A stretch of DNA of 15,710 nt from a virus (taxonomy: Duplodnaviria > Heunggongvirae > Uroviricota > Caudoviricetes): the IMG/VR virus record IMGVR_UViG_2778261360_000006. One strand, 5' to 3'. The notes under the pieces are model-generated. The model ran no database searches and had not been told where the DNA came from. It was given only the letters and a program-made list of their open reading frames with translations. Shown here in pieces: positions 824 to 12,512 of this stretch (its first letter is position 1; each line of letters starts with the position of its first letter). The position numbers and the translations under genes are program-made.

Positions 824-1234
824 TTAGTGCGGAAATATTTGTGTAGTGTTCTGAATGTTCTCAGTAAAGAGTAATGAATTATCAAAGGTATAGTAATACC
901 TTTTGTTTTCGTGGATATTTGTAATCCATCTGAAAACCCCTGCTGTAGCAAGATTTTTCCTGTATTCGTAAAATGATAACTCTCCTGATTTGAATCCTTT
1001 TAAGGTGGCTTCTATAAGGCATTTATTTTTTGAAAATCTTACATTTACAACCTTACCCTGTCCTTTTATTAAAACCGTATTATCGTTTTCAAGAACAAGA
1101 TGAATATTCTCTGTGGCTAAATAGTAAATGTAATGTGAGACATTGTGACGTTTTAGTTCAGAATAAAACCAGTGATAGTTTAAATTATTTCGCACTTTAT
1201 CGAATATTTGTTTAAAAATGGCAACCTGAGCCAT
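824..1234 (-). CDS. Hypothetical protein, 136 aa from the SD-supported start at 1234 (ORF track extends to 1249); AT-rich moron gene, possibly DUF1398 / YbcV-YdfO-like prophage protein
   Basis: Long ORF in an otherwise non-coding, visibly AT-rich stretch. GGAAGG Shine-Dalgarno 7 nt upstream of the ATG at 1234. Family assignment is only by recollection of size and position of ybcV in E. coli DLP12 (between lysis genes and the Nu1 homolog); not verified. Confidence 0.65.
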
Positions 1235-1291
1235 TGTAGTACCTTCCATGTGATATGAGGGGGCGTAGTCTGCACGATTATCTAAATTGCT

Positions 1292-1952: not shown

Positions 1953-2459
1953 ATGGCCTTTTTATTGAATAAAAGTGATATGGCCTCCTCCATCGGTATC
2001 TCTGTTCAGGCATTTGATAAATGGGGCGTTCCTCCTGTTGAACGTCGGGGGAGGGAAGTTTTATATGACGTTAAAACTGTACTAGAGATAGATCGCGAGC
2101 GGCGACAACACAATCAGAGAACACCTGATGACGGGGGAGAACTGGAGGAAAGGCTGCTTCGGGCCAGAGCTGAACTGACAGAAGAACAGGCTGTAGCTCA
2201 AAAACTTAAAAATCAGGTAACCGAAGGTAAGCTCATCGATTCAGACTTTTGCGTTTTCGCCCTCAGCAAACTGGCGATGGCATTGTCCAGTACGCTTGAT
2301 TCCATTCCGTTATCCATGCAGCGACAGTTCCCGGATTTAACGCCACGTCATATTGACCATCTGAAAACCCTTATTGCAAAGGGCGCAAATCAGTGTGCGC
2401 GGGCAGGGGATAAATTACCGGATTTGCTGGATGAATATATCAGAGCAACAACTGAATAA
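1953..2459 (+). CDS. nu1: Terminase small subunit (gpNu1-like); start taken at ATG 1953 rather than the ORF-track start 1848
   Basis: Translation from MAFLLNKSDMASSIGISVQAFDKWGVPPVERRGREVLYDV aligns with the lambda Nu1 N-terminal winged-HTH (…IRTIQNWQEQGMPV…GNEVLYD…) and C-terminal region (…LSMQRQFPDL…). GGAGAGGAG Shine-Dalgarno precedes 1953; the 1848 extension would cover cosB repeats. Confidence 0.85.
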   Translation: MAFLLNKSDMASSIGISVQAFDKWGVPPVERRGREVLYDVKTVLEIDRERRQHNQRTPDDGGELEERLLRARAELTEEQAVAQKLKNQVTEGKLIDSDFCVFALSKLAMALSSTLDSIPLSMQRQFPDLTPRHIDHLKTLIAKGANQCARAGDKLPDLLDEYIRATTE

Positions 2460-4359
2460 TATGGTGGCCGCCGTTTCGGTTGCGCTGCAGCCTCTGGTCA
2501 GGGTTGTACCGATGACGGCAGTTGAATGGGCTGACCAGTATTATTATCTGCCGAAAGAATCCTCATACGGTGACGGCGAATGGAAAACGCTGCCGTTCCA
2601 GATCGCCATCATGAACAGTATGGGGAATGATCAGATCCGCACTGTTAATCTGATTAAATCTGCCCGTGTTGGCTATACAAAGATGTTGCTGGGAGTCGCC
2701 GGGTATTTTATTGAGCATAAATCCCGAAACAGTCTGCTTTTTCAGCCCACGGATTCTGCCGCTGAAGATTTTATGAAGTCTCACGTGGAGGCGACGATTC
2801 GGGACGTGCCATGCCTGAAAGATCTTTCCCCGTGGCTGGGTCGTAAACATCGTGGTAATACCCTCACGCTGAAACGCTTTTCATCGGGGGGGGGCTTCTG
2901 GTGCCTGGGTGGTGCGGCAGCAAAAAACTACCGTGAAAAATCCGTGGACGTGGTCTGCTATGACGAACTTTCCTCGTTCGAGCCGGATGTCGAAAAAGAG
3001 GGCTCGCCAACCCTGCTGGGGGATAAGCGTATTGAGGGCTCGGTATGGCCAAAATCCATTCGCGGCTCGACGCCTAAAATAAAAGGCTCCTGCCAGATCG
3101 AAAAAGCGGCCAACGAGTCGGCGCATTTCATGCGTTTTTATGTGCCCTGCCCGCACTGTGGGGAGGCGCAGTATCTGAAATTTGGCGATGAGTCCACGCC
3201 TTTTGGCCTTAAATGGGAGAAGGACAGCCCCGAAAGCGTTTTCTACCTCTGTGAACATCATGGCTGCGTGATCCATCAGTCTGAGCTTGACCAGAGCAAC
3301 GGGCGGTGGATCTGTGAAAACACGGGCATGTGGACCCGTGACGGTCTGACGTTTTTCAGCGCTGCGGGTAATGAAATTCCGCCGCCGCGCTCCATCACTT
3401 TCCATATCTGGACGGCGTACAGTCCGTTCACCACCTGGGTACAGATTGTCTATGACTGGCTGGATGCACTGAAAGATCCCAACGGCCTGAAAACCTTTGT
3501 GAACACCACGCTGGGCGAGACCTGGGAAGAGGCCGTGGGCGAAAAAATCGATCACCAGGTACTGATGGATAAGGTTGTGCGTTACACGGCGGCGGTGCCT
3601 GCCCGGGTGGTTTATCTGACGGCGGGCATTGACTCGCAGCGAAACCGTTTTGAGATGTATGTCTGGGGATGGGCTCCGGGAGAGGAAGCCTTTCTGGTGG
3701 ATAAAATCATCATTATGGGGCGTCCCGATGAGGAAGAGACGCTGTTACGTGTGGATGCGGCGATCAACAAAAAATACCGCCATGCAGACGGAACCGAAAT
3801 GACCATTTCCCGTGTCTGCTGGGACACCGGGGGGATCGATGGCGAAATTGTCTATCAGAGGTCAAAAAAACACGGTGTTTTCCGGGTGCTGCCGGTAAAA
3901 GGTGCATCTGTTTATGGCAAGCCGGTGATCACCATGCCAAAAACCCGCAATCAGCGGGGCGTGTATCTGTGCGAAGTGGGGACGGACACCGCAAAAGAAA
4001 TTCTCTATGCCCGTATGAAAGCCGATCCCACGCCTGTGGATGAAGCCACGTCGTATGCCATCCGTTTTCCTGATGATCCGGAGATTTTTTCGCAGACAGA
4101 GGCGCAGCAACTGGTCGCGGAAGAGCTTGTGGAGAAGTGGGAAAAAGGAAAGATGCGTCTGCTGTGGGATAACAAAAAGCGGCGTAACGAAGCGCTGGAC
4201 TGCCTGGTGTATGCCTACGCGGCATTACGTGTGTCCGTGCAACGCTGGCAGCTTGATCTGGCTGTACTGGCAAAATCCCGGGAAGAAGAGACGACCCGGC
4301 CAACCCTTAAAGAACTGGCAGCGAAGCTGTCCGGAGGAGTGAATGGTTACAGTCGCTGA
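2431..4359 (+). CDS. A: Terminase large subunit (gpA-like), 642 aa; start at ATG 2431 (MNISEQQ…), overlapping the Nu1 3' end by 29 nt
   Basis: Strong colinear similarity to lambda gpA throughout (TAVEWAD..YYLPKES, FWCLGG..AKNYREKSVDV, GDKRIEGSVWPKSIRGSTPK, WTAYSPFTTWVQIV, FVNTTLGETWE, KKRRNEALDC). Lambda gpA also begins MNIS…; the ORF-track start 2374 is an in-frame upstream extension. Confidence 0.95.
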   Translation: MNISEQQLNNMVAAVSVALQPLVRVVPMTAVEWADQYYYLPKESSYGDGEWKTLPFQIAIMNSMGNDQIRTVNLIKSARVGYTKMLLGVAGYFIEHKSRNSLLFQPTDSAAEDFMKSHVEATIRDVPCLKDLSPWLGRKHRGNTLTLKRFSSGGGFWCLGGAAAKNYREKSVDVVCYDELSSFEPDVEKEGSPTLLGDKRIEGSVWPKSIRGSTPKIKGSCQIEKAANESAHFMRFYVPCPHCGEAQYLKFGDESTPFGLKWEKDSPESVFYLCEHHGCVIHQSELDQSNGRWICENTGMWTRDGLTFFSAAGNEIPPPRSITFHIWTAYSPFTTWVQIVYDWLDALKDPNGLKTFVNTTLGETWEEAVGEKIDHQVLMDKVVRYTAAVPARVVYLTAGIDSQRNRFEMYVWGWAPGEEAFLVDKIIIMGRPDEEETLLRVDAAINKKYRHADGTEMTISRVCWDTGGIDGEIVYQRSKKHGVFRVLPVKGASVYGKPVITMPKTRNQRGVYLCEVGTDTAKEILYARMKADPTPVDEATSYAIRFPDDPEIFSQTEAQQLVAEELVEKWEKGKMRLLWDNKKRRNEALDCLVYAYAALRVSVQRWQLDLAVLAKSREEETTRPTLKELAAKLSGGVNGYSR

Positions 4360-4549
4360 ACTGCAGGCGCTGCGTCAGGCGCGCCTTGATTTATTAACCG
4401 GTAAACGGGTGGTGTCTGTCCAGAAAGATGGTCGCAGAATTGAATATACGGCGGCTTCTCTGGATGAGCTTAACCGGGCGATCAATGATGCGGAGTCGGT
4501 ACTGGGGACAACCCGGCGTCGCCGTCGTCCGCTGGGAGTGAGGTTATGA
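4343..4549 (+). CDS. W: Head-tail joining / head completion protein gpW-like (68 aa)
   Basis: Size and sequence (…LLTGKRVVSVQKDGRRIEYTAASL…RRRR) resemble lambda gpW; GGAGGAG Shine-Dalgarno; overlaps the A stop and is coupled to B by ATGA at 4546-4549. Confidence 0.9.
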   Translation: MVTVAELQALRQARLDLLTGKRVVSVQKDGRRIEYTAASLDELNRAINDAESVLGTTRRRRRPLGVRL

Positions 4550-6138
4550 AACGAACGCCTGTCCTGATTGATGTGAACGGCGTTCCGCTTCGGGAGAGCC
4601 TCAGCTACAACGGTGGCGGTGCAGGATTTGGCGGGCAAATGGCAGAGTGGTTGCCACCCTCGCAGAGTGCCGATGCGGCCCTGCTGCCCGCGTTGCGTCT
4701 GGGGAATGCCCGTGCAGATGATCTGGTGCGCAATAACGGAATAGCGGCCAATGCGGTGGCCCTGCATAAGGATCACATTGTCGGGCATATGTTTCTGATT
4801 AGCTACCGTCCGAACTGGCGCTGGCTGGGGATGCGGGAGACCGCGGCAAAAAGTTTTGTCGATGAGGTGGAGGCGGCCTGGTCAGAATACGCAGAAGGGA
4901 TGTTTGGTGAGATCGACGTGGAAGGGAAACGCACGTTTACGGAATTTATCCGTGAAGGTGTGGGCGTTCATGCGTTTAACGGCGAAATCTTTGTGCAGCC
5001 GGTCTGGGATACGGAGAGTACGCAACTGTTTCGTACGCGTTTTAAAGCCGTGAGTCCGAAACGGGTGGACACGCCAGGACACGGTATGGGGAACCGTTTT
5101 CTGCGGGCCGGGGTGGAGGTCGATCGATATGGCCGTGCCGTTGCGTACCATATCTGTGAGGATGATTTTCCTCGCTCCGGGAGTGGACGATGGGAACGGA
5201 TCCCGCGTGAACTTCCCACCGGGCGTCCGGCCATGCTGCATATTTTCGAGCCGGTGGAGGACGGGCAGACCCGTGGGGCCAACCAGTTTTACAGCGTCAT
5301 GGAACGGCTGAAGATGCTCGATTCCCTGCAGGCAACACAGCTTCAGTCGGCCATTGTGAAGGCGATGTATGCAGCGACGATTGAAAGTGACCTTGATACC
5401 GAAAAGGCCTTTGAATATATCGCCGGTGCGCCGCAGGGGCAGAAGGATAATCCGCTTATTAATATTCTGGAGAAGTTCTCCAGCTGGTATGACACGAATA
5501 ACGTGACGCTGGGTGGTGTCAAAATTCCGCACCTTTTCCCCGGTGATGATCTGAAACTTCAGACCGCGCAGGATTCAGACAATGGATTTTCGGCGCTTGA
5601 ACAGGCGCTGCTGCGGTATATCGCCGCCGGTCTTGGCGTTTCCTACGAACAGTTGTCCCGTGATTACTCGAAGGTCAGTTACTCAAGTGCCCGCGCATCC
5701 GCCAATGAGTCGTGGCGCTATTTTATGGGGCGGCGAAAATTTATTGCGTCCCGGCTGGCCACGCAGATGTTTTCCTGCTGGCTGGAAGAGGCACTTCTTC
5801 GGGGGATTATTCGTCCGCCACGGGCACGGTTTGATTTTTATCAGGCGCGATCAGCCTGGTCACGGGCTGAGTGGATTGGAGCCGGAAGAATGGCCATTGA
5901 CGGGCTCAAGGAGGTTCAGGAATCAGTGATGCGCATTGAGGCCGGACTGAGCACGTATGAGAAAGAGCTGGCGCTGATGGGCGAGGATTATCAGGACATT
6001 TTCCGCCAGCAGGTCAGGGAATCTGCAGAGCGGGAAAAAGCCGGACTCTCACGTCCGGTGTGGATAGCGCAGGCGTATCAGCAGCAGATAGCGGAGAGTC
6101 GCAGGCCGGAAGAGGAGACAACACCCCGTGAGACGTAA
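4546..6138 (+). CDS. B: Portal protein (gpB-like), 530 aa
   Basis: Length and position match lambda gpB (533 aa); follows W and precedes the head protease as in lambda. Confidence 0.93.
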   Translation: MKRTPVLIDVNGVPLRESLSYNGGGAGFGGQMAEWLPPSQSADAALLPALRLGNARADDLVRNNGIAANAVALHKDHIVGHMFLISYRPNWRWLGMRETAAKSFVDEVEAAWSEYAEGMFGEIDVEGKRTFTEFIREGVGVHAFNGEIFVQPVWDTESTQLFRTRFKAVSPKRVDTPGHGMGNRFLRAGVEVDRYGRAVAYHICEDDFPRSGSGRWERIPRELPTGRPAMLHIFEPVEDGQTRGANQFYSVMERLKMLDSLQATQLQSAIVKAMYAATIESDLDTEKAFEYIAGAPQGQKDNPLINILEKFSSWYDTNNVTLGGVKIPHLFPGDDLKLQTAQDSDNGFSALEQALLRYIAAGLGVSYEQLSRDYSKVSYSSARASANESWRYFMGRRKFIASRLATQMFSCWLEEALLRGIIRPPRARFDFYQARSAWSRAEWIGAGRMAIDGLKEVQESVMRIEAGLSTYEKELALMGEDYQDIFRQQVRESAEREKAGLSRPVWIAQAYQQQIAESRRPEEETTPRET

Positions 6139-7633
6139 TCTTTCACACATTATTGCAGCAGCATTCAATGAACCGCTGCTTCTGGAGCCCGCCTATGCGC
6201 GGGTTTTCTTTTGCGCGCTGGGGCGCGAGATGGGGGCAGCAAGTCTTTCGGTACCGCAACAGCAGGTACAGCTTGATGCTCCCGGGATGCTGGCTGAAAC
6301 GGACGAGTACATGGCCGGAGGTAAACGACCGGCCCGTGTTTACCGGGTGGTGAACGGTATTGCGGTACTGCCGGTGACCGGCACGCTGGTGCACCGGCTG
6401 GGGGGGATGCGGCCATTTTCCGGAATGACTGGCTATGACGGCATTGTCGCCTGTCTTCAGCAGGCAATGGCAGATAGCCTGGTGCGGGGCATACTGCTGG
6501 ACATTGACAGTCCGGGCGGGCAGGCCGCCGGCGCGTTTGACTGCGCTGACATGATTTACCGCCTCCGGCAGCAGAAGCCGGTCTGGGCACTGTGTAATGA
6601 CACGGCCTGTTCTGCGGCCATGCTGCTGGCGTCGGCCTGCTCCCGACGGCTGGTTACCCAGACATCCCGTATCGGCTCCATTGGCGTGATGATGAGCCAT
6701 GTCAGCTATGCCGGTCATCTGGCGCAGGCCGGTGTGGATATCACGCTGATTTATGCCGGGGCGCACAAGGTGGATGGCAATCAGTTTGAAGCGTTGCCGG
6801 CAGAGGTTCGCCAGGATATGCAGCAGCGGATTGATGCGGCGCACCGGATGTTTGCCGAAAAAGTGGCGATGTATACCGGGTTGTCTGTGGATGCGGTCAC
6901 GGGAACAGAGGCCGCCGTTTTTGAAGGTCAGTCCGGCATTGAGGCCGGGCTGGCGGATGAATTAATCAATGCGTCGGATGCCATCAGTGTGATGGCCACG
7001 GCGCTGAACAGTAATGTCAGAGGAGGCACTATGCCGCAATTAACTGCAACGGAAGCCGCCGTGCAGGAAAACCAGCGAGTGATGGGGATCCTGACATGCC
7101 AGGAAGCGAAAGGACGTGAACAGCTTGCCACGATGCTGGCAGGGCAACAGGGCATGAGCGTTGAACAGGCCCGGGCGATTCTGGCCGCGGCGGCACCGCA
7201 GCAGCCGGTGGCATCCGCGCAGAGTGAAGCCGATCGCATTATGGCGTGTGAAGAAGCGAACGGTCGTGAACAACTGGCAGTAACGCTGGCGGCGATGCCG
7301 GAGATGACGGTGGAAAAAGCCCGCCCGATCCTGGCTGCTTCACCGCAGGCGAATGCCGGACCCTCACTCCGTGATCAGATCATGGCACTGGATGAGGCAA
7401 AAGGGGCTGAGGCGCAGGCTGAACAGCTGGCTGCCTGCCCGGGAATGACCGTGGAGAGCGCCCGGGCTGTGCTGGCTGCGGGATCAGGTAAGGCAGAACC
7501 GGTCTCTGCATCCACAACCGCCCTGTTTGAACATTTCATGGCGAACCATTCACCGGCTGCGGTCCAGGGGGGCGTGTCACAGACGTCAGCAGACGGTGAT
7601 GCGGACGTGAAAATGCTCATGGCCATGCCATGA
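6128..7633 (+). CDS. C: Head maturation protease / minor capsid protein gpC-like (S49/ClpP-family peptidase domain plus C-terminal scaffold-like domain), 501 aa; GTG start
   Basis: N-terminal region aligns with lambda gpC (NLPHI…AFNEPL.LEPAYARVFFCAL; GIAVLPV.GTLV; GILLD.D.PGG; VWAL.ND; SRRLVTQT.R.GSIGVM; TLIY.G.HKVDGN). Codon 6128 is GTG, with AGAGGAGA 11 nt upstream. About 60 aa longer than lambda C because of repeated C-terminal segments. Confidence 0.9.
   Translation: MRRNLSHIIAAAFNEPLLLEPAYARVFFCALGREMGAASLSVPQQQVQLDAPGMLAETDEYMAGGKRPARVYRVVNGIAVLPVTGTLVHRLGGMRPFSGMTGYDGIVACLQQAMADSLVRGILLDIDSPGGQAAGAFDCADMIYRLRQQKPVWALCNDTACSAAMLLASACSRRLVTQTSRIGSIGVMMSHVSYAGHLAQAGVDITLIYAGAHKVDGNQFEALPAEVRQDMQQRIDAAHRMFAEKVAMYTGLSVDAVTGTEAAVFEGQSGIEAGLADELINASDAISVMATALNSNVRGGTMPQLTATEAAVQENQRVMGILTCQEAKGREQLATMLAGQQGMSVEQARAILAAAAPQQPVASAQSEADRIMACEEANGREQLAVTLAAMPEMTVEKARPILAASPQANAGPSLRDQIMALDEAKGAEAQAEQLAACPGMTVESARAVLAAGSGKAEPVSASTTALFEHFMANHSPAAVQGGVSQTSADGDADVKMLMAMP
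7031..7633 (+). CDS. nu3: Scaffolding protein Nu3-like, in-frame internal start within C (shares C-terminus with gpC), 200 aa
   Basis: In-frame ATG at 7031 preceded by a perfect AGGAGG (7021-7026). In lambda, Nu3 is translated in the C frame from an internal start and is about 201 aa. Inference by analogy. Confidence 0.55.
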   Translation: MPQLTATEAAVQENQRVMGILTCQEAKGREQLATMLAGQQGMSVEQARAILAAAAPQQPVASAQSEADRIMACEEANGREQLAVTLAAMPEMTVEKARPILAASPQANAGPSLRDQIMALDEAKGAEAQAEQLAACPGMTVESARAVLAAGSGKAEPVSASTTALFEHFMANHSPAAVQGGVSQTSADGDADVKMLMAMP

Positions 7634-7669: not shown

Positions 7670-8017
7670 ATGGTGACGAAAACCATCACTGAACAGCGTG
7701 CGGAAGTACGTATTTTTGCCGGTAATGATCCGGCTCACACCGCCACAGGCAGCAGCGGGATTTCCTCGGCAACACCGGCACTGACACCCCTGATGCTGGA
7801 TGGGGCCACCGGGAAACTGGTGGTCTGGGACGGACAGAAAGCCGGTAGTGCGGTTGGCATACTGGTACTGCCGCTTGAAGGCACAGAGGCGGTGCTGACG
7901 TATTACAAGTCGGGGACCTTTGCGACGGAGGCAATCCGCTGGCCTGAAAGTGTGGATGAACACAAAAAGGCCAACGCCTTTACCGGCAGTGCCCTGAGTC
8001 ACGCGGCGCTGCCGTAA
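7670..8017 (+). CDS. D: Head decoration protein gpD-like (115 aa)
   Basis: Clear similarity to lambda gpD (…DPAHTAT…PA.TPLMLD…KLV.WDG…A.VGIL…YKSGTF…WPE…). Confidence 0.9.
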   Translation: MVTKTITEQRAEVRIFAGNDPAHTATGSSGISSATPALTPLMLDGATGKLVVWDGQKAGSAVGILVLPLEGTEAVLTYYKSGTFATEAIRWPESVDEHKKANAFTGSALSHAALP

Positions 8018-8074
8018 CACGTTATCAGGCCACCGCGTTGGCCTGACTGATTTCTTAATGAAAGGAACTGATTT

Positions 8075-9103
8075 ATGGGATTGTTTACGACCCGCCAGTT
8101 ACTCGGTTATACCGAACAAAAAGTGAAATTTCGTGCGCTGTTTCTGGAGCTGTTTTTCCGCCGTACGGTGAATTTCCATACCGAAGAGGTGATGCTGGAC
8201 AAAATTACCGGAAAAACGCCGGTGGCGGCCTATGTCTCCCCGGTTGTTGAAGGAAAAGTGCTGCGTCATCGCGGTGGTGAAACCCGCGTGTTACGTCCGG
8301 GCTACGTCAAGCCGAAACACGAATTTAATTACCAGCAGGCGGTTGAGCGTCTTCCCGGTGAAGATCCGGCTCAACTGAACGACCCGGCCTACCGTCGTCT
8401 GCGTATCATCACCGATAACCTCAAACAGGAAGAGCATGCCATTGTCCAGGTGGAAGAAATGCAGGCGGTGAATGCCGTGCTGTATGGCAAATACACCATG
8501 GAAGGGGATCAGTTTGATACTGTCGAGGTGGATTTTGGACGCTCTGAAGGAAATAACATTGAGCAGGCCGACGGTAAAAAATGGTCTGAGCAGGACCGTG
8601 ATACGTTTGATCCGACGCATGATATTGACCTCTACTGCGATCAGGCCAGCGGTCTTGTGAATATTGCCATTATGGACGGTACTGTCTGGCGTCTGCTGAA
8701 TGGTTTTAAGCTGTTCCGCGAAAAACTGGATACCCGTCGCGGCTCAAATTCACAACTCGAAACGGCAGTGAAAGACCTGGGGGCGGTGGTGTCTTTCAAA
8801 GGGTATTACGGCGATCTGGCCATTGTGGTGGCGAAAACGTCTTATGTGGCAGAGGACGGTACCGAAAAACGTTATCTGCCGGAGGGCACGCTGGTCCTGG
8901 GAAATACGGCTGCAGATGGGATCCGTTGTTACGGTGCCATTCAGGATGCGCAGGCGTTGTCCGAAGGTGTGGTGGCTTCTTCCCGTTACCCGAAACACTG
9001 GCTGACCGTGGGCGATCCGGCCCGTGAATTTACCATGACGCAGTCCGCACCGCTGATGGTGCTGCCGGATCCGGATGAGTTTGTGGTGGTGCAGGTGAAA
9101 TAA
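8075..9103 (+). CDS. E: Major capsid protein gpE-like (342 aa)
   Basis: Colinear similarity to lambda gpE (341 aa): YVSP.V.G.V…PGYVKPKHE…DPAYRR.RII…VEEMQAV.AVL.GKYTM…KLDTRRGSNS.LETAVKDLG…GDPAREFTM.QSAPLM.L.DPDEFV.VQ. AAAGGAA Shine-Dalgarno. Confidence 0.95.
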   Translation: MGLFTTRQLLGYTEQKVKFRALFLELFFRRTVNFHTEEVMLDKITGKTPVAAYVSPVVEGKVLRHRGGETRVLRPGYVKPKHEFNYQQAVERLPGEDPAQLNDPAYRRLRIITDNLKQEEHAIVQVEEMQAVNAVLYGKYTMEGDQFDTVEVDFGRSEGNNIEQADGKKWSEQDRDTFDPTHDIDLYCDQASGLVNIAIMDGTVWRLLNGFKLFREKLDTRRGSNSQLETAVKDLGAVVSFKGYYGDLAIVVAKTSYVAEDGTEKRYLPEGTLVLGNTAADGIRCYGAIQDAQALSEGVVASSRYPKHWLTVGDPAREFTMTQSAPLMVLPDPDEFVVVQVK

Positions 9104-9111
9104 TCCGTGAG

Positions 9112-9140
9112 CGGGGGCGAAATGCCCCCGTGTCTTTTTT
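9112..9140 (+). terminator. Intrinsic-terminator-like hairpin between E and FI: stem CGGGGGC/GCCCCCG (7 bp), loop GAAAT, followed by TGTCTTTTTT
   Basis: Read directly from the sequence, 9 nt after the E stop codon. GC-rich perfect stem plus a T6 run is the classic rho-independent terminator signature. Confidence 0.5.
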
Positions 9141-9154
9141 CACAGGGGGCTGAT

Positions 9155-9538
9155 ATGGCAACAAAAGAAGAAAATCAGAAACGTCTTCGTCAACTGGCTG
9201 GCCTGCTGGGGCGCGAGGCGGATATGTCGGGGAGTGCTGCGGATATTGCGCAACGTGTGTCTGAGTGGGAAGAGGAGCTTGCTGCTTCCCGGGAGGGCAT
9301 TATGCCTGGTGATGAGAGCGGGCCTGAGCAAAATCACACAGACGATGGTGAGCAGTTGCACAACACTGATGCTACGGATGATGTTAAAGCGGTCCGTGTG
9401 CGGAAATGCCTGCATGTGATGGGGTATTGCCCGGAGACAGGCCGTCCCGTTGAACTGACGTACCGGGGCATGCGTGTTCTGGTGCCATCACCACTGGCGA
9501 CAGCCATGATACAGCACGGAACGGCTGAGCATGCGTGA
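9155..9538 (+). CDS. FI: DNA packaging protein gpFI-like (127 aa); start at ATG 9155 (MATKEEN…)
   Basis: Position between E and FII and size (lambda FI is 132 aa). AGGGGG Shine-Dalgarno at 9144-9149. The ORF-track start 9107 would place the start inside the hairpin. Confidence 0.8.
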   Translation: MATKEENQKRLRQLAGLLGREADMSGSAADIAQRVSEWEEELAASREGIMPGDESGPEQNHTDDGEQLHNTDATDDVKAVRVRKCLHVMGYCPETGRPVELTYRGMRVLVPSPLATAMIQHGTAEHA

Positions 9539-9884
9539 TTTTCAGAATGCCTTTGATGCTGCCCTTGCCGGGGTGGACAGCACGATTGTTGAAGTGATGG
9601 GGCTCTGTGCGCAGTTCACCTCGGGGGCACAGTGTGGCAGCGAAGTTCAGGGGGTTTTTGACGATCCGGAGTCGCTGGGGTTTGCCGGTAGCGGGGTCCG
9701 TATTGAAGGAAGCTGTCCGTCATTATTTGTGCGGACGGATACGGTTCGTGCTGTGCGGCGTGGTGACACGCTGACCATTAATGGTGAGACGTTCTGGGTG
9801 GATCGTGTTTCTCCGGATGACGGGGGCAGCTGTTATCTCTGGCTCAACCGTGGGCAACCACCCGCCGTTAACCGGCGACGATAA
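9531..9884 (+). CDS. FII: Head-tail connector / head completion protein gpFII-like (117 aa)
   Basis: Strong similarity to lambda gpFII (…GVFDDPE…G.GVR.EGS.PSLFVRTD.VR.RRGDTLTI…FWVDRVSPDDGGSC.LWL.RG.PPAVNRRR). Confidence 0.92.
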   Translation: MRDFQNAFDAALAGVDSTIVEVMGLCAQFTSGAQCGSEVQGVFDDPESLGFAGSGVRIEGSCPSLFVRTDTVRAVRRGDTLTINGETFWVDRVSPDDGGSCYLWLNRGQPPAVNRRR

Positions 9885-10874: not shown

Positions 10875-11627
10875 ATGGCAACACCAAATCCCCTTGAGCC
10901 GGTAAAAGGTGCCGGTACCACTCTGTGGGTTTACAACGGCAAGGGTGATGCTTATGCAAACCCGTTGTCAGACGATGACTGGCTGCGACTGGCTAAGGTG
11001 AAGGATCTGACGCCGGGCGAGATGACGGCAGAACCCTACGATGATAACTACCTGGATGATGAAGACGCGGACTGGACCGCGACCGGGCAGGGGCAGAAGT
11101 CTGCAGGAGATACCAGTTTTACGCTGGCCTGGAAACCGGGAGAAGAAGGTCAGAAAGGGCTTATAGGCTGGTTTGAAAGCGGGGATGTGCGGGCCTATAA
11201 AATCCGTTTTCCGAACGGCACGGTGGATGTGTTTCGTGGCTGGGTCAGCAGTATCGGTAAGGCCGTGACGGCGAAGGAAGTGATCACCCGCACGGTGAAA
11301 GTCACTAACGTGGGTAAACCTTCTGTAGCGGAAGAACGCAGCAAAATTACGCCGGTCAGTGCGATTAAGGTGACGCCGACATCCGGTACGGTGGCAAAAG
11401 GGAAAACAACCACCCTGACGGTTTCTTTTGAGCCGGAAAGTGCAACCGACAAGACGTTCAGAGCGGTTTCCGCCGATCCGTCGAAAGCCACCATTAGTGT
11501 GAAAGATATGACAATTACGGTAAACGGCGTGGCGACAGGTAAGGTGCAGATCCCTGTGGTGAGCGGAAATGGTCAGTTCGCCGCAGTGGCTGAAGTCACC
11601 GTTACTGAAGCGGGCGCTGCAGGGTAA
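10875..11627 (+). CDS. V: Major tail tube protein gpV-like with C-terminal Ig-like (Big_2-type) domain (250 aa)
   Basis: Size (lambda V is 246 aa), position, and a C-terminal segment ([30 protein letters not shown]…) with Ig-like beta-sandwich character as in lambda gpV. GAGGA Shine-Dalgarno. Confidence 0.93.
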
Positions 11628-11640
11628 ACGGAGGTAATAC

Positions 11641-12072
11641 ATGTTTCTGAAAACAGAACAATTTGAATATAACGGTGTGTCCGTCACGCTTTCCGAATTG
11701 TCTGCGCTGCAGCGTATTGAGCATCTTGCCCTCCTGAAACGGCGTGCAGAACAGGCAGAATCCAGCGGCAACCTGCAGGTAAGCGTGGAAGATCTCGTCA
11801 GAACCGGCGCGTTTCTGGTGGCGATGTCCCTGTGGCATAACCATCCGCAGAAAACGGGGTCACCGTCAATGAATGAGGCCGTGATGCAGATTGAGCAGGA
11901 AGTCCTGACCACCTGGCCTGCGGATGCCATTGCCCGGGCGGAAGATGTGGTGTTGCGTCTGTCCGGGATGAGCGGGCCTGTTCATGTGGATACGGATATT
12001 ACCGAAGTGGCGAAAAATAACGCGCTGACTGATGATGATTTTTCTGCGGGAAAGTCTTCGACGGCGAGCTGA
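11641..12072 (+). CDS. G: Tail assembly chaperone gpG-like (143 aa)
   Basis: Position and size (lambda G is 140 aa); GGAGG Shine-Dalgarno; contains a GGGAAAG slippery heptamer near its 3' end. Confidence 0.9.
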   Translation: MFLKTEQFEYNGVSVTLSELSALQRIEHLALLKRRAEQAESSGNLQVSVEDLVRTGAFLVAMSLWHNHPQKTGSPSMNEAVMQIEQEVLTTWPADAIARAEDVVLRLSGMSGPVHVDTDITEVAKNNALTDDDFSAGKSSTAS

Positions 12073-12512
12073 ATTTTGCCCTCAGACTGGCGCGTGAGAT
12101 GGGGAGGCCTGACTGGCGCGCCATGCTTGCCGGGATGACATCCACCGAATATGCCGACTGGCGACATTTTTACCGCATGCATTATTTTCACGATACCCAG
12201 CTGGATATGCATTTTTCCGGGCTGACGTACGCTGTACTCAGCCTGTTTTTTTGCGATCCGGATATGCATCCCTCTGATTTCAGTCTGCTTGTCCCCCGGC
12301 ATGAGGAAGAGCAGGTGGAGAGGCCGGATGAGGACAAAATGCTGATGCAGAAAGCGGCAGGACTTGCCGGAGGCGTCCGGTTCGGTGGGGACGGAGGGCG
12401 CGATATTTTATCGTCTGCGGATGTGGCGGATGTCATGGTGGATGATGTCGCATTAATGATGGCTTCAGCGGGGATTTCCGGAGGTGTGAGATATGTCCCA
12501 GCCGGTTGGTGA
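11641..12512 (+). CDS. T: Tail assembly chaperone G-T fusion produced by -1 frameshift at 12048-12054 (T frame 12054-12512)
   Basis: The ORF listed at 12099-12512 is in the -1 frame relative to G and has an upstream stop at 12036-12038, so the slippery site lies inside the 12039-12072 overlap; matches the conserved lambda G/GT arrangement before the tape measure gene. Confidence 0.75.
12048..12054 (+). promoter_or_regulatory. Programmed -1 ribosomal frameshift slippery site G GGA AAG (G to G-T fusion)
   Basis: Heptamer GGGAAAG lies in the G frame as G.GGA.AAG (…SAGKSS), 18 nt before the G stop. The -1 frame is open from 12039 and continues to 12512. Confidence 0.75.

What the first reader, a model, noticed from the sequence alone, without database searches (positions are those of the whole stretch)
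9110..9140. Terminator-like hairpin inside the late operon between major capsid gene E and FI
A perfect 7-bp GC stem (CGGGGGC / GCCCCCG), 5-nt loop and TGTCTTTTTT tail sit 9 nt after the E stop, inside what should be one long late transcript. Possible roles: a partial terminator/attenuator setting the head-to-tail protein ratio, or a 3' stabiliser for the highly expressed capsid mRNA segment. Lambda also has a stem-loop after E as I recall, so this may be a conserved feature whose sequence has turned over.
Basis: partly seen in the sequence, partly recalled or inferred. Interest (0 to 1): 0.35.

Follow-up and report, generated by a model that had tools for sequence, protein, structure and literature searches.

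The report
Conserved stem-loop after capsid gene
A strong, terminator-shaped RNA hairpin sits right after the major capsid gene of this phage-21-like prophage; almost every phage with this capsid family keeps a hairpin at that spot, and phage N15's is already annotated as a putative terminator, so it is a real but ordinary feature whose role has never been tested.

Summary
Window 9111-9131 forms an 8-bp stem (core CGGGGGC/GCCCCCG, loop GAAAT, -16.8 kcal/mol) followed by GTCTTTTTT. It lies in the 51-nt spacer between the E-family capsid gene (8075-9103) and FI (true start 9155). It is the only such site in the window, and about 1e-4 would be expected by chance in a spacer of this size.

A hairpin at this position is conserved with complete sequence turnover. 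In 23 of 25 lineages of E-family phages, a compact GC hairpin lies 0-32 nt after the capsid stop. Within the 21-like clade every variant keeps pairing: plus-strand G·U wobbles, and one G-C→G·U→A-U series.

It is not new. Phage 21 has the identical sequence, lambda has ATGGCCC-TTCG-GGGCCAT at the same place, and N15's record annotates its counterpart as a "putative rho-indep. transcription terminator".

The function is not established. Only about 7 of 23 hairpins carry a U-tract, and this one starts 7-8 nt after a heavily translated stop codon. Late transcription in lambdoid phages is terminator-resistant. I therefore favour a read-through stem-loop that blocks 3' exonucleases and so stabilises capsid mRNA, and that also stops unmodified or untranslated transcription. 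Partial attenuation remains possible. Interest is low.

The parts
9111..9131 (+). RNA stem-loop: GCGGGGGC / GAAAT / GCCCCCGT. It has 8 pairs: 7 Watson-Crick (all G-C or C-G) plus an outer G·U.
   Evidence: All 96 of 96 cells are paired across 12 distinct 21-like variants, with one compensatory pair.
9132..9140 (+). U-rich tail GTCTTTTTT (T6 at 9135-9140), which gives the hairpin the anatomy of an intrinsic terminator.
   Evidence: The tail varies a little among relatives (TTTATT, TTTTTG, TGTTTT, TTTTTCATTC).
8075..9103 (+). Major capsid protein gene (lambda E / phage 21 gene 7 family). Its stop TAA 9101-9103 lies 7-8 nt before the stem.
   Evidence: Pfam Phage_cap_E, E = 6e-67. 91-95% DNA identity to phage 21 and PhiR12 phages.
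9144..9157 (+). FI ribosome-binding site (AGGGGG, 9144-9149) and start codon (ATG, 9155-9157), beginning 13 nt after the hairpin.
   Evidence: Phage 21 M81255 annotates the RBS and the ORF1 start at the homologous positions. Packaging_FI Pfam hit for 9155-9538.
8025..8046 (+). Companion stem-loop in the D-E spacer (TCAGGCCA / CCGCGT / TGGCCTGA, tail CTGATTTCTT). Together the two hairpins bracket gene E.
   Evidence: Most other lambdoid lineages have a canonical terminator-like hairpin at this position, and N15 annotates it as a putative terminator.

Best explanation
This is a plus-strand RNA stem-loop on the late mRNA that marks the 3' boundary of the capsid-shell (D-E) expression unit. It is the positional counterpart of the hairpin that follows the E-family capsid gene in lambda, N15, phi80 and most other phages with this capsid.

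In this 21-like version the hairpin also carries a U-tail, so it has the full anatomy of an intrinsic terminator.

Proposed mechanism:
- During productive late transcription the site is mostly read through. The late polymerase is Q-modified and terminator-resistant, and ribosomes finishing E sit only 7-8 nt upstream, where they hinder folding of the hairpin behind the polymerase.
- Once the transcript has been made, the hairpin folds and acts as a barrier to 3'-to-5' exonucleases (PNPase, RNase II) after endonucleolytic cuts downstream. The E-containing segment therefore outlives the FI and tail segment, which helps give the very high E output.
- For polymerases that are not Q-modified, or transcripts that are not being translated (stray transcription in the lysogen), it works as an ordinary terminator.

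Shown here: the structure, its strand, its conservation, its terminator anatomy and its closeness to the stop codon. Inferred: read-through, the exonuclease-barrier effect and the fail-safe termination.
For: - Structure and uniqueness.
- Positional conservation with unrelated sequences: 23 of 25 E-family lineages have a compact GC hairpin (-8 to -24 kcal/mol) 0-32 nt after the capsid stop. The 60-nt MFE is below the shuffle mean in 25 of 25 and reaches p<0.05 in 19 of 25.
- Pairing within the 21-like clade: 96 of 96 cells paired, against 49-73% when the partner columns are slid. There is one G-C→G·U→A-U series (window → L181 → L005).
- Strand: all 6 single-sided changes found give G·U on the plus strand. 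These are C→T at four stem positions in 21-type sequences (two on each arm), a fifth C→T (GCCTCC, 3' arm), and A→G in lambda-type sequences. On the minus strand each would be an A·C mismatch, so the RNA is plus-sense.
- The hairpin is conserved but the U-tract is not: about 7 of 23 lineages have at least 5 T in 8. The chi-like, Casjensviridae and other distant hairpins (Vibrio K290, Sinorhizobium phi2LM21) mostly run straight into the next gene's Shine-Dalgarno sequence; of these only Achromobacter AchV4 has a T-run. This argues for a role that does not need termination.
- Ribosome proximity: 22 of 23 hairpins start less than 27 nt after the stop (here 7-8 nt). Lambda tR2 dropped from about 90% to under 10% efficiency with a stop codon 5 bp upstream and reached its maximum only beyond 27 nt (PMC4824070).
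- No promoter-like site nearby, so the region lies inside one transcription unit.
- Established knowledge, not tested here: Q-loaded polymerase resists terminators, and stable intercistronic hairpins block 3' exonucleases (puf operon hairpin, malE-malF REP).
Against: - No transcript data were available, so 3' ends, coverage steps and half-lives at this site are unknown.
- The U-tail is well kept within the 21-like clade and in several lambdoid lineages. A pure exonuclease barrier would not need it, so some real termination may be selected.
- The major tail gene V, also highly expressed, has no such hairpin after it (13-nt gap at 11627-11641). High expression alone therefore does not predict the element.
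- The D-E hairpin would also protect low-demand upstream genes (Nu1 to C), so stoichiometry cannot be set by these hairpins alone. The classical work on lambda (from memory, not read here) attributes late-gene ratios mainly to translation initiation.
- The window does not contain the Q gene, so the type of antiterminator is unknown.
Confidence: 0.45

Rival explanations
1. Partial intrinsic terminator (attenuator). A fraction of late-transcribing polymerases stop at the U-tail, which lowers mRNA dosage for FI, FII and the tail genes relative to the head-shell genes.
For: - Full terminator anatomy: an 8-bp GC stem, a 5-nt loop and 6 T in the next 8-10 nt.
- It is the best terminator-like site in the window.
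- The N15 annotators called the homologue a putative rho-independent terminator.
- Casjens and colleagues list partial termination as one possible role for terminators inside late operons (PMC8022706).
- From my own knowledge, terminators after major coat genes do attenuate in T7 (T-phi) and in f1.
Against: - Late transcription in lambdoid phages is Q-antiterminated (established knowledge).
- The stop codon is only 7-8 nt upstream, a distance at which ribosomes nearly abolish tR2 termination.
- The U-tract is absent in about 16 of 23 lineages that keep the hairpin.
- The proximal tail is interrupted (UGUC before the U6 run).
- A similar or stronger terminator-like hairpin sits between D and E in most relatives. 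If it terminated, it would unbalance two proteins that are needed in about equal copy number.
Confidence: 0.2
2. Fail-safe terminator only. It stops polymerases that entered the head-tail genes without Q modification (stray promoters, read-in during lysogeny) and has no effect on the late mRNA.
For: - Terminator anatomy.
- This role is proposed for such sites in PMC8022706.
- Untranslated transcripts would escape ribosome repression, so the terminator would work on them.
- Each lambdoid lineage examined has at least one reasonably canonical terminator flanking E. Lambda-type phages have it between D and E, and 21-type phages between E and FI.
Against: - Distant, lytic relatives keep the hairpin without a U-tract, so termination cannot be the conserved function.
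- It does not explain why the site is tied to the 3' end of the capsid gene rather than placed anywhere in the operon.
Confidence: 0.15
3. Translational decoupler. The stable hairpin between the E stop and the FI Shine-Dalgarno sequence stops the dense stream of ribosomes leaving E from re-initiating at FI, and it keeps the FI ribosome-binding site in a defined context. FI output is then set by its own site.
For: - This is the largest intergenic gap in an otherwise tightly packed, overlapping operon.
- In many lineages the hairpin ends 2-13 nt before the next gene's Shine-Dalgarno sequence.
- The two lineages without a hairpin (Vibrio X29, Paenibacillus Lily) have overlapping or abutting genes.
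Against: - There is no direct evidence.
- A plain spacer would already uncouple translation.
- The specific idea that the C-rich arm pairs with the FI Shine-Dalgarno sequence fails: only 80.6% of cells pair, and Shine-Dalgarno variants (AGGAGG, AGAGGG, AGGAGA) are not compensated.
Confidence: 0.1
4. The hairpin and U-tail form the 3' end of a stable small RNA derived from the 3' end of the E message. It would bind Hfq, in the way that the lambda tL2a terminator forms the 3' end of LPR1/PreS.
For: - A GC stem plus a U6 tail is the classic Hfq-binding 3' module.
- Precedent: a terminator inside an antiterminated lambda operon yields an Hfq-bound sRNA (bioRxiv 10.1101/2024.10.31.621285).
Against: - That RIL-seq study reported LPR1, LPR2 and 6S as lambda's sRNAs, none from the E-FI spacer. 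A text search of its supplements for E/FI labels found nothing relevant.
- Lambda's own tail is U-poor.
- Most lineages lack a U-tail.
Confidence: 0.04
5. A chance inverted repeat, or a DNA-level protein-binding palindrome, with no RNA function.
For: By folding energy alone the site is not an outlier in this GC-rich window.
Against: - About 1e-4 such sites are expected per spacer.
- Hairpins recur at the same position in 23 of 25 lineages with unrelated sequences.
- Every observed stem substitution preserves RNA pairing on the plus strand only. G·U on the plus strand is A·C on the other strand and a mismatch for a DNA palindrome.
Confidence: 0.02

Closest known systems
Phage N15 stem_loop 7053-7073, annotated 'putative rho-indep. 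transcription terminator', between gene 8 (capsid) and gene 9 (FI) (NC_001901)
   Same: Same position between homologous genes (E-family capsid, then FI). Same architecture: a 7-bp GC stem (GTGGCCC/GGGCCAC), a short loop and a T-rich tail. N15 also has a companion annotated stem-loop between D and E.
   Different: The stem sequence is unrelated and the N15 tail is weaker (CTTTCTGG). Both are annotations from sequence only, with no experiment that I could find.
Lambda E-FI spacer hairpin (lambda 7163-7180, ATGGCCC-TTCG-GGGCCAT)
   Same: Positional homologue: it starts 2 nt after the E stop and ends about 12 nt before the FI Shine-Dalgarno sequence. Its variants also keep pairing (A-U → G·U in lambda-type prophages, G-C in N15 and phi80).
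   Different: It has a UUCG tetraloop and a different stem, and its tail is U-poor (TGTTTCTCTG). It is not annotated in J02459 or NC_001416. In lambda the canonical terminator-like hairpin is the one between D and E.
Terminators inside the late operon of P22-like phages (phage L, after the procapsid gene module)
   Same: A predicted rho-independent terminator inside a single-promoter, antiterminated late operon, at the end of the head-shell genes. The authors state that such sites are common, that their roles are not known, and they offer partial termination or blocking of spurious transcription as possibilities (PMC8022706).
   Different: The capsid gene family (P22 gp5) and the neighbouring genes are different, and there is no sequence relationship.
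Intercistronic mRNA decay terminators (Rhodobacter puf operon hairpin; malE-malF REP in E. coli). Cited from my own knowledge.
   Same: A stable stem-loop just after the most highly expressed cistron of a polycistronic mRNA. Transcription reads through it, and it then blocks 3' exonucleases so that the upstream segment accumulates.
   Different: Those cases are shown experimentally, whereas this one is inferred. This hairpin also has a U-tail and is a single short stem, not a REP or compound structure.
T7 T-phi after gene 10, and the f1 terminator after gene VIII. Cited from my own knowledge.
   Same: A terminator placed directly after the major coat protein gene, which gives more coat mRNA than downstream mRNA.
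   Different: Those act on polymerases that are not antiterminated, and they truly terminate a measured fraction of transcripts. Here the polymerase is expected to be Q-modified.

Membership tests
Intrinsic (Rho-independent) terminator | GC-rich stem of about 5-14 bp with a 3-8 nt loop, on the transcribed strand | tested here: met
   An 8-bp stem with 7 G-C/C-G pairs, loop GAAAT, -16.8 kcal/mol, plus strand.
Intrinsic (Rho-independent) terminator | U-tract of about 7-9 nt immediately 3' of the stem | tested here: met
   UGUCUUUUUU follows the stem, with 6 U in the scan's 8-nt window. The proximal part is interrupted by G and C, so the strength is probably moderate.
Intrinsic (Rho-independent) terminator | Hairpin free to fold behind the polymerase (enough distance from a translated stop codon) | tested here: not met
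   The stem starts 7-8 nt after the E stop. Lambda tR2 needed more than 27 nt for full efficiency and fell below 10% at 5 nt (PMC4824070). The condition would be met on untranslated transcripts.
Intrinsic (Rho-independent) terminator | Transcript 3' ends or RNA release at the U-tract, in vivo or in vitro | not testable with these tools
   No transcript data were accessible. Liu et al. 2013 (lambda RNA-seq and ribosome profiling) is not held, and the EHEC Term-seq supplements are not held.
Post-capsid-gene stem-loop of E-family phages (N15 stem_loop 7053-7073 and its positional homologues) | Lies in the spacer between an E-family major capsid gene and the next head-completion gene | tested here: met
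   Pfam Phage_cap_E upstream and Packaging_FI downstream. The position is the same in 23 of 25 lineages.
Post-capsid-gene stem-loop of E-family phages (N15 stem_loop 7053-7073 and its positional homologues) | Pairing maintained in evolution (compensatory or wobble changes, sequence turnover between clades) | tested here: met
   96 of 96 cells paired, one double compensatory change and several plus-strand G·U changes. The stems are unrelated between clades. The shuffle control within the clade is weak (98 of 500) because variation is low.
Intercistronic mRNA decay terminator (3' exonuclease barrier) | Stable stem-loop just 3' of a highly expressed cistron inside a read-through polycistronic transcript | tested here: met
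   Position and stability are as above. There is no promoter-like site nearby. Relatives keep the hairpin even without a U-tract.
Intercistronic mRNA decay terminator (3' exonuclease barrier) | Processed 3' ends at the hairpin and a longer half-life for the upstream segment than for the downstream one | not testable with these tools
   This needs 3'-end mapping and rifampicin-chase RNA measurements.
RNase III processing site | Roughly 20 bp or more of double-stranded RNA | tested here: not met
   The stem is only 8-9 bp. The extended fold adds a weak 6-bp outer helix.
Hfq-dependent sRNA derived from a 3' end | Terminator hairpin with a U-tail of at least 6, plus a discrete stable short RNA bound by Hfq | tested here: inconclusive
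   The hairpin and U6 tail are present. No RNA or Hfq evidence exists, and the lambda RIL-seq study names no sRNA from this spacer.
Any curated Rfam RNA family | Covariance-model match at the gathering threshold | tested here: not met
   There were no matches anywhere in the window.

The most novel reading that the evidence does not exclude
The two hairpins that bracket gene E (8025-8046 and 9111-9131), conserved across E-family phages, may define a processed, hairpin-capped capsid mRNA module cut out of the late transcript. Alternatively, the E-FI hairpin and its U-tail may yield a stable Hfq-binding small RNA from the capsid 3' end, as lambda tL2a does for PreS. Either way, capsid output or host regulation would depend on RNA processing, and not only on translation initiation as classically held for lambda late genes.
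Probability: 0.07. Interest if true: 0.55.

Novelty: new member of a known kind. Interest (0 to 1): 0.2.

Why it matters
The practical value is modest.
- It shows that the spacer after E-family capsid genes is a conserved RNA-structure site, not junk. Annotators should mark it, and should not let the downstream ORF run through it. That happens with the mechanical GTG-9107 ORF here, and apparently with phi80's FI start.
- It points to an old, still untested question: what do terminator-shaped hairpins do inside antiterminated late operons?

The comparative pattern gives a testable prediction. The hairpin is always kept, the U-tract is optional, and the hairpin sits very close to the stop codon. 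This predicts that the conserved role is post-transcriptional. If the prediction holds, part of the capsid-to-accessory protein ratio in lambdoid phages would be set by mRNA decay. That would matter for phage engineering and for lambda-based expression or display systems. It would not change how the field thinks about phage gene regulation.

Tried and rejected
- Shine-Dalgarno sequestration. The C-rich 3' arm (GCCCCC) is complementary to the FI Shine-Dalgarno sequence (GGGGGC), which suggested a switch. I rejected this. Only 80.6% of cells pair across variants, Shine-Dalgarno variants are uncompensated, and the MFE keeps the terminator hairpin with the Shine-Dalgarno sequence free.
- Minus-strand element or DNA palindrome. 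Rejected, because all single-sided substitutions are G·U on the plus strand only and there is no U-run after the hairpin on the minus strand.
- Known RNA family. Rfam gave no hit at the gathering threshold.
- Single-sequence energy statistics. These are not decisive. Coding regions of the window fold as well in 40-nt windows, and the 60-nt z-score is only -1.5.
- Within-clade covariation statistics. The shuffle control is weak (98 of 500) because the clade varies little. The argument rests on turnover between clades.
- Experimental evidence in the literature. Liu et al. 2013 is not held. The EHEC Term-seq paper has no supplements held. The lambda RIL-seq preprint and its tables contain nothing on the E-FI spacer. 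Text searches for a described E/FI terminator found nothing specific.
- A degenerate DNA pattern scan of viral contigs returned mostly unrelated hits. It added only a few more 21-type variants.
- A first version of the shuffle test timed out and was redone with a cheaper statistic.

Full report
**What is there**

The window is the lysis-end, head and tail part of a phage-21-like lambdoid prophage. Pfam assigns the following genes:

| Coordinates | Gene or family |
|---|---|
| 52-516 | Rz |
| 824-1249 (minus strand) | DUF1398 |
| 1848-2459 | Nu1 |
| 2374-4359 | terminase gpA |
| 4546-6138 | lambda-type portal |
| 6128-7633 | S49 protease |
| 7670-8017 | head decoration D |
| 8075-9103 | Phage_cap_E, E = 6e-67 |
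| 9155-9538 | Packaging_FI |
| 9531-9884 | FII |

The DNA around the finding is 91% identical to phage 21 (M81255) and 95% identical to the PhiR12 phages. It is 100% identical to prophages in several E. coli genomes.

- The E stop TAA is at 9101-9103.
- The stem is CGGGGGC (9112-9118) paired with GCCCCCG (9124-9130), with an extra G9111·U9131 pair.
- The loop is GAAAT.
- The tail is GTCTTTTTT, with T6 at 9135-9140.
- The FI Shine-Dalgarno sequence AGGGGG is at 9144-9149 and the ATG at 9155.

Phage 21 carries the identical spacer, and its record places the ribosome-binding site and ORF1 start at the same positions. The mechanical ORF that starts at GTG 9107 is therefore an over-extension that swallows the hairpin.

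**Is it more than chance?**

The built-in scan ranks it the best terminator-like site in the window, with 9 pairs of which 7 are GC. The hairpin alone folds at -16.8 kcal/mol, and 9095-9150 folds at -22.3 kcal/mol with z = -2.2.

My own scan finds it to be the only perfect stem of at least 7 bp and at least 6 GC pairs with a 3-8 nt loop and a T-run on either strand. Dinucleotide shuffles of the window give 0.035 such sites per strand, or about 1e-4 per 51-nt spacer.

Energy alone is not remarkable, however. GC-rich coding sequence in this window reaches -20 to -23 kcal/mol in 40-nt windows, and the 60 nt after the stop give only z = -1.5. The case for function rests on anatomy, position and comparison.

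**Comparative evidence**

I collected the spacer after E-family capsid genes from three sources:
- genome contigs;
- viral contigs, queried with the window's E, lambda's E and a Serratia E;
- annotated phage records found by tblastn.

Across 25 distinct lineages, 23 have a compact GC-rich stem-loop (5-14 pairs, -8 to -24 kcal/mol) starting 0-32 nt after the capsid stop. The stem sequences are unrelated between lineages. Examples:

| Lineage | Hairpin and tail |
|---|---|
| lambda | ATGGCCC-TTCG-GGGCCAT |
| N15 | GTGGCCC-ATTC-GGGCCAC |
| Providencia | CGGCGGG-GAAA-CCCGCCG + ATTTTTAT |
| Escherichia whittamii | GAGCC-GAAA-GGCTC + TTTTTTT |
| Trabulsiella | 11-bp stem, no T-run |
| Serratia | AGGGGC-TACG-GCCCCT |
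| chi-like and Casjensviridae phages | 9-13-bp stems (Achromobacter AchV4's is interrupted); except in AchV4, they run straight into the next gene's Shine-Dalgarno sequence |

The two exceptions are Vibrio X29 and Paenibacillus Lily. In these the capsid gene overlaps or abuts the next gene.

The 60-nt MFE after the stop is below the shuffle mean in 25 of 25 lineages and reaches p<0.05 in 19 of 25.

Within the 21-like clade, 12 distinct spacer variants keep 96 of 96 stem cells paired, against 49-73% when the partner columns are slid. One pair shows the full path G-C (window) → G·U (L181) → A-U (L005).

Every single-sided change seen gives G·U on the plus strand. These are C→T at four stem positions (two on each arm), a further GCCTCC variant, and A→G in lambda-type prophages. 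On the minus strand each would be an A·C mismatch. The selected structure is therefore an RNA fold of the late, plus-sense transcript.

**It is already known as a kind**

The N15 reference record annotates both its D-E hairpin (5980-6004) and its E-FI hairpin (7053-7073) as "putative rho-indep. transcription terminator". Lambda's records do not annotate theirs, although the hairpin is plainly there.

For P22-like phages, Casjens and colleagues note a predicted terminator at the end of the procapsid module inside the late operon. [quoted passage not shown] They suggest partial termination or blocking of transcripts made without antitermination (PMC8022706).

No Rfam family matches anywhere in the window.

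**How it most likely works**

Three observations bear on mechanism.
1. The hairpin is the conserved part and the U-tract is optional. Only about 7 of 23 lineages have at least 5 T in the 8 nt after the stem. The common function therefore cannot require intrinsic termination.
2. [quoted passage not shown] For lambda tR2, moving a stop codon to 5 bp upstream cut termination from about 90% to under 10%. Full efficiency needed more than 27 nt, and uncoupling translation restored termination (PMC4824070).
3. Late genes of lambdoid phages are transcribed by Q-modified polymerase, which ignores terminators. This is established knowledge. The Q gene lies outside this window, so I could not check its type.

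Taken together, termination should be largely suppressed during productive late transcription. The hairpin then persists as a structure in the mRNA.

The best-fitting known mechanism is an intercistronic decay terminator. In that mechanism the stem-loop blocks PNPase and RNase II after endonucleolytic cuts downstream, so the D-E segment outlives the FI and tail segment. The puf operon hairpin and the malE-malF REP are the classic examples (my own knowledge).

In lineages such as this one that add a U-tail, the same hairpin would also terminate polymerases that are unmodified or whose transcripts are untranslated. That would act as a fail-safe against stray expression of structural genes in the lysogen.

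These steps are inferred. Nothing here measures transcripts.

**Rivals**

- **Partial attenuator (0.2).** This fits the anatomy and the precedents in T7 and f1. It is disfavoured by the three observations above. It is also disfavoured by the equally terminator-like hairpin between D and E in most relatives, because termination there would unbalance two proteins used in about equal numbers.
- **Fail-safe terminator only (0.15).** This does not explain the U-less hairpins of lytic relatives.
- **Translational decoupler (0.1).** This is compatible with the spacing data. The specific pairing of the 3' arm with the FI Shine-Dalgarno sequence is rejected (80.6% paired, uncompensated variants).
- **Hfq-binding RNA from the capsid 3' end (0.04).** Lambda tL2a and PreS provide a precedent, but nothing supports it here.
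- **Chance or a DNA site (0.02).** Excluded by the comparative data.

**Verdict**

It is a new member of a known kind: a sequence-diverged positional homologue of an element already annotated in N15, and identical to the unannotated one in phage 21. A specialist would not be surprised. Interest is low (0.2). The one useful output is a clear, testable prediction about why terminator-shaped hairpins persist inside antiterminated late operons.

Noticed in passing
window 8025-8046 (D-E spacer 8021-8074): A second intergenic stem-loop, TCAGGCCA-CCGCGT-TGGCCTGA with the weak tail CTGATTTCTT, so hairpins bracket gene E on both sides. In lambda, N15, phi80 and several prophage lineages the D-E spacer carries a canonical A-tract, GC stem and T7 terminator. 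The pattern is reciprocal: lambda-type phages have a strong D-E and a weak E-FI terminator, and 21-type phages the reverse.
   Followed up: partly
window 9107-9538; L183 (phi80 NC_021190) 1736: The mechanical ORF from GTG 9107 runs through the hairpin, whereas the true FI start is ATG 9155. The phi80 reference annotation starts its FI gene 9 nt after the capsid stop, which puts the conserved hairpin inside the CDS. That start is probably over-extended.
   Followed up: partly
window 824-1249, minus strand: A DUF1398 gene (Pfam E = 3e-43) lies on the opposite strand between Rz (52-516) and Nu1 (1848-2459). It is a moron-like insertion inside the late transcription unit near the expected cos region.
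   Followed up: no
window 8074-8318: Aeromonas phage AP1 (MT713136, 254 kb) holds an unannotated 245-bp stretch that is 98.4% identical to the 5' end of this E. coli prophage capsid gene. It looks like contamination or an assembly chimera in that record.
   Followed up: no
window about 9277 (inside FI): Many E. coli prophage matches, and the phage 21 match, break inside FI rather than at the hairpin. The mosaic junction therefore lies in the central part of FI, and the hairpin travels with the capsid gene.
   Followed up: no
window 12048-12054: GGGAAAG lies near the end of the G-like ORF (11641-12072), with the overlapping T-frame ORF at 12099-12512. This is the expected lambda-type G/GT -1 frameshift slippery site.
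   Followed up: no
window 9144-9149 and homologous positions in L011-L090 and L198-L309: The FI Shine-Dalgarno sequence is unusually variable among near-identical prophages (AGGGGG, AGGAGG, AGAGGG, AGGAGA, AGGGAG, AGAGGC), while the hairpin 13 nt upstream is almost invariant.
   Followed up: partly
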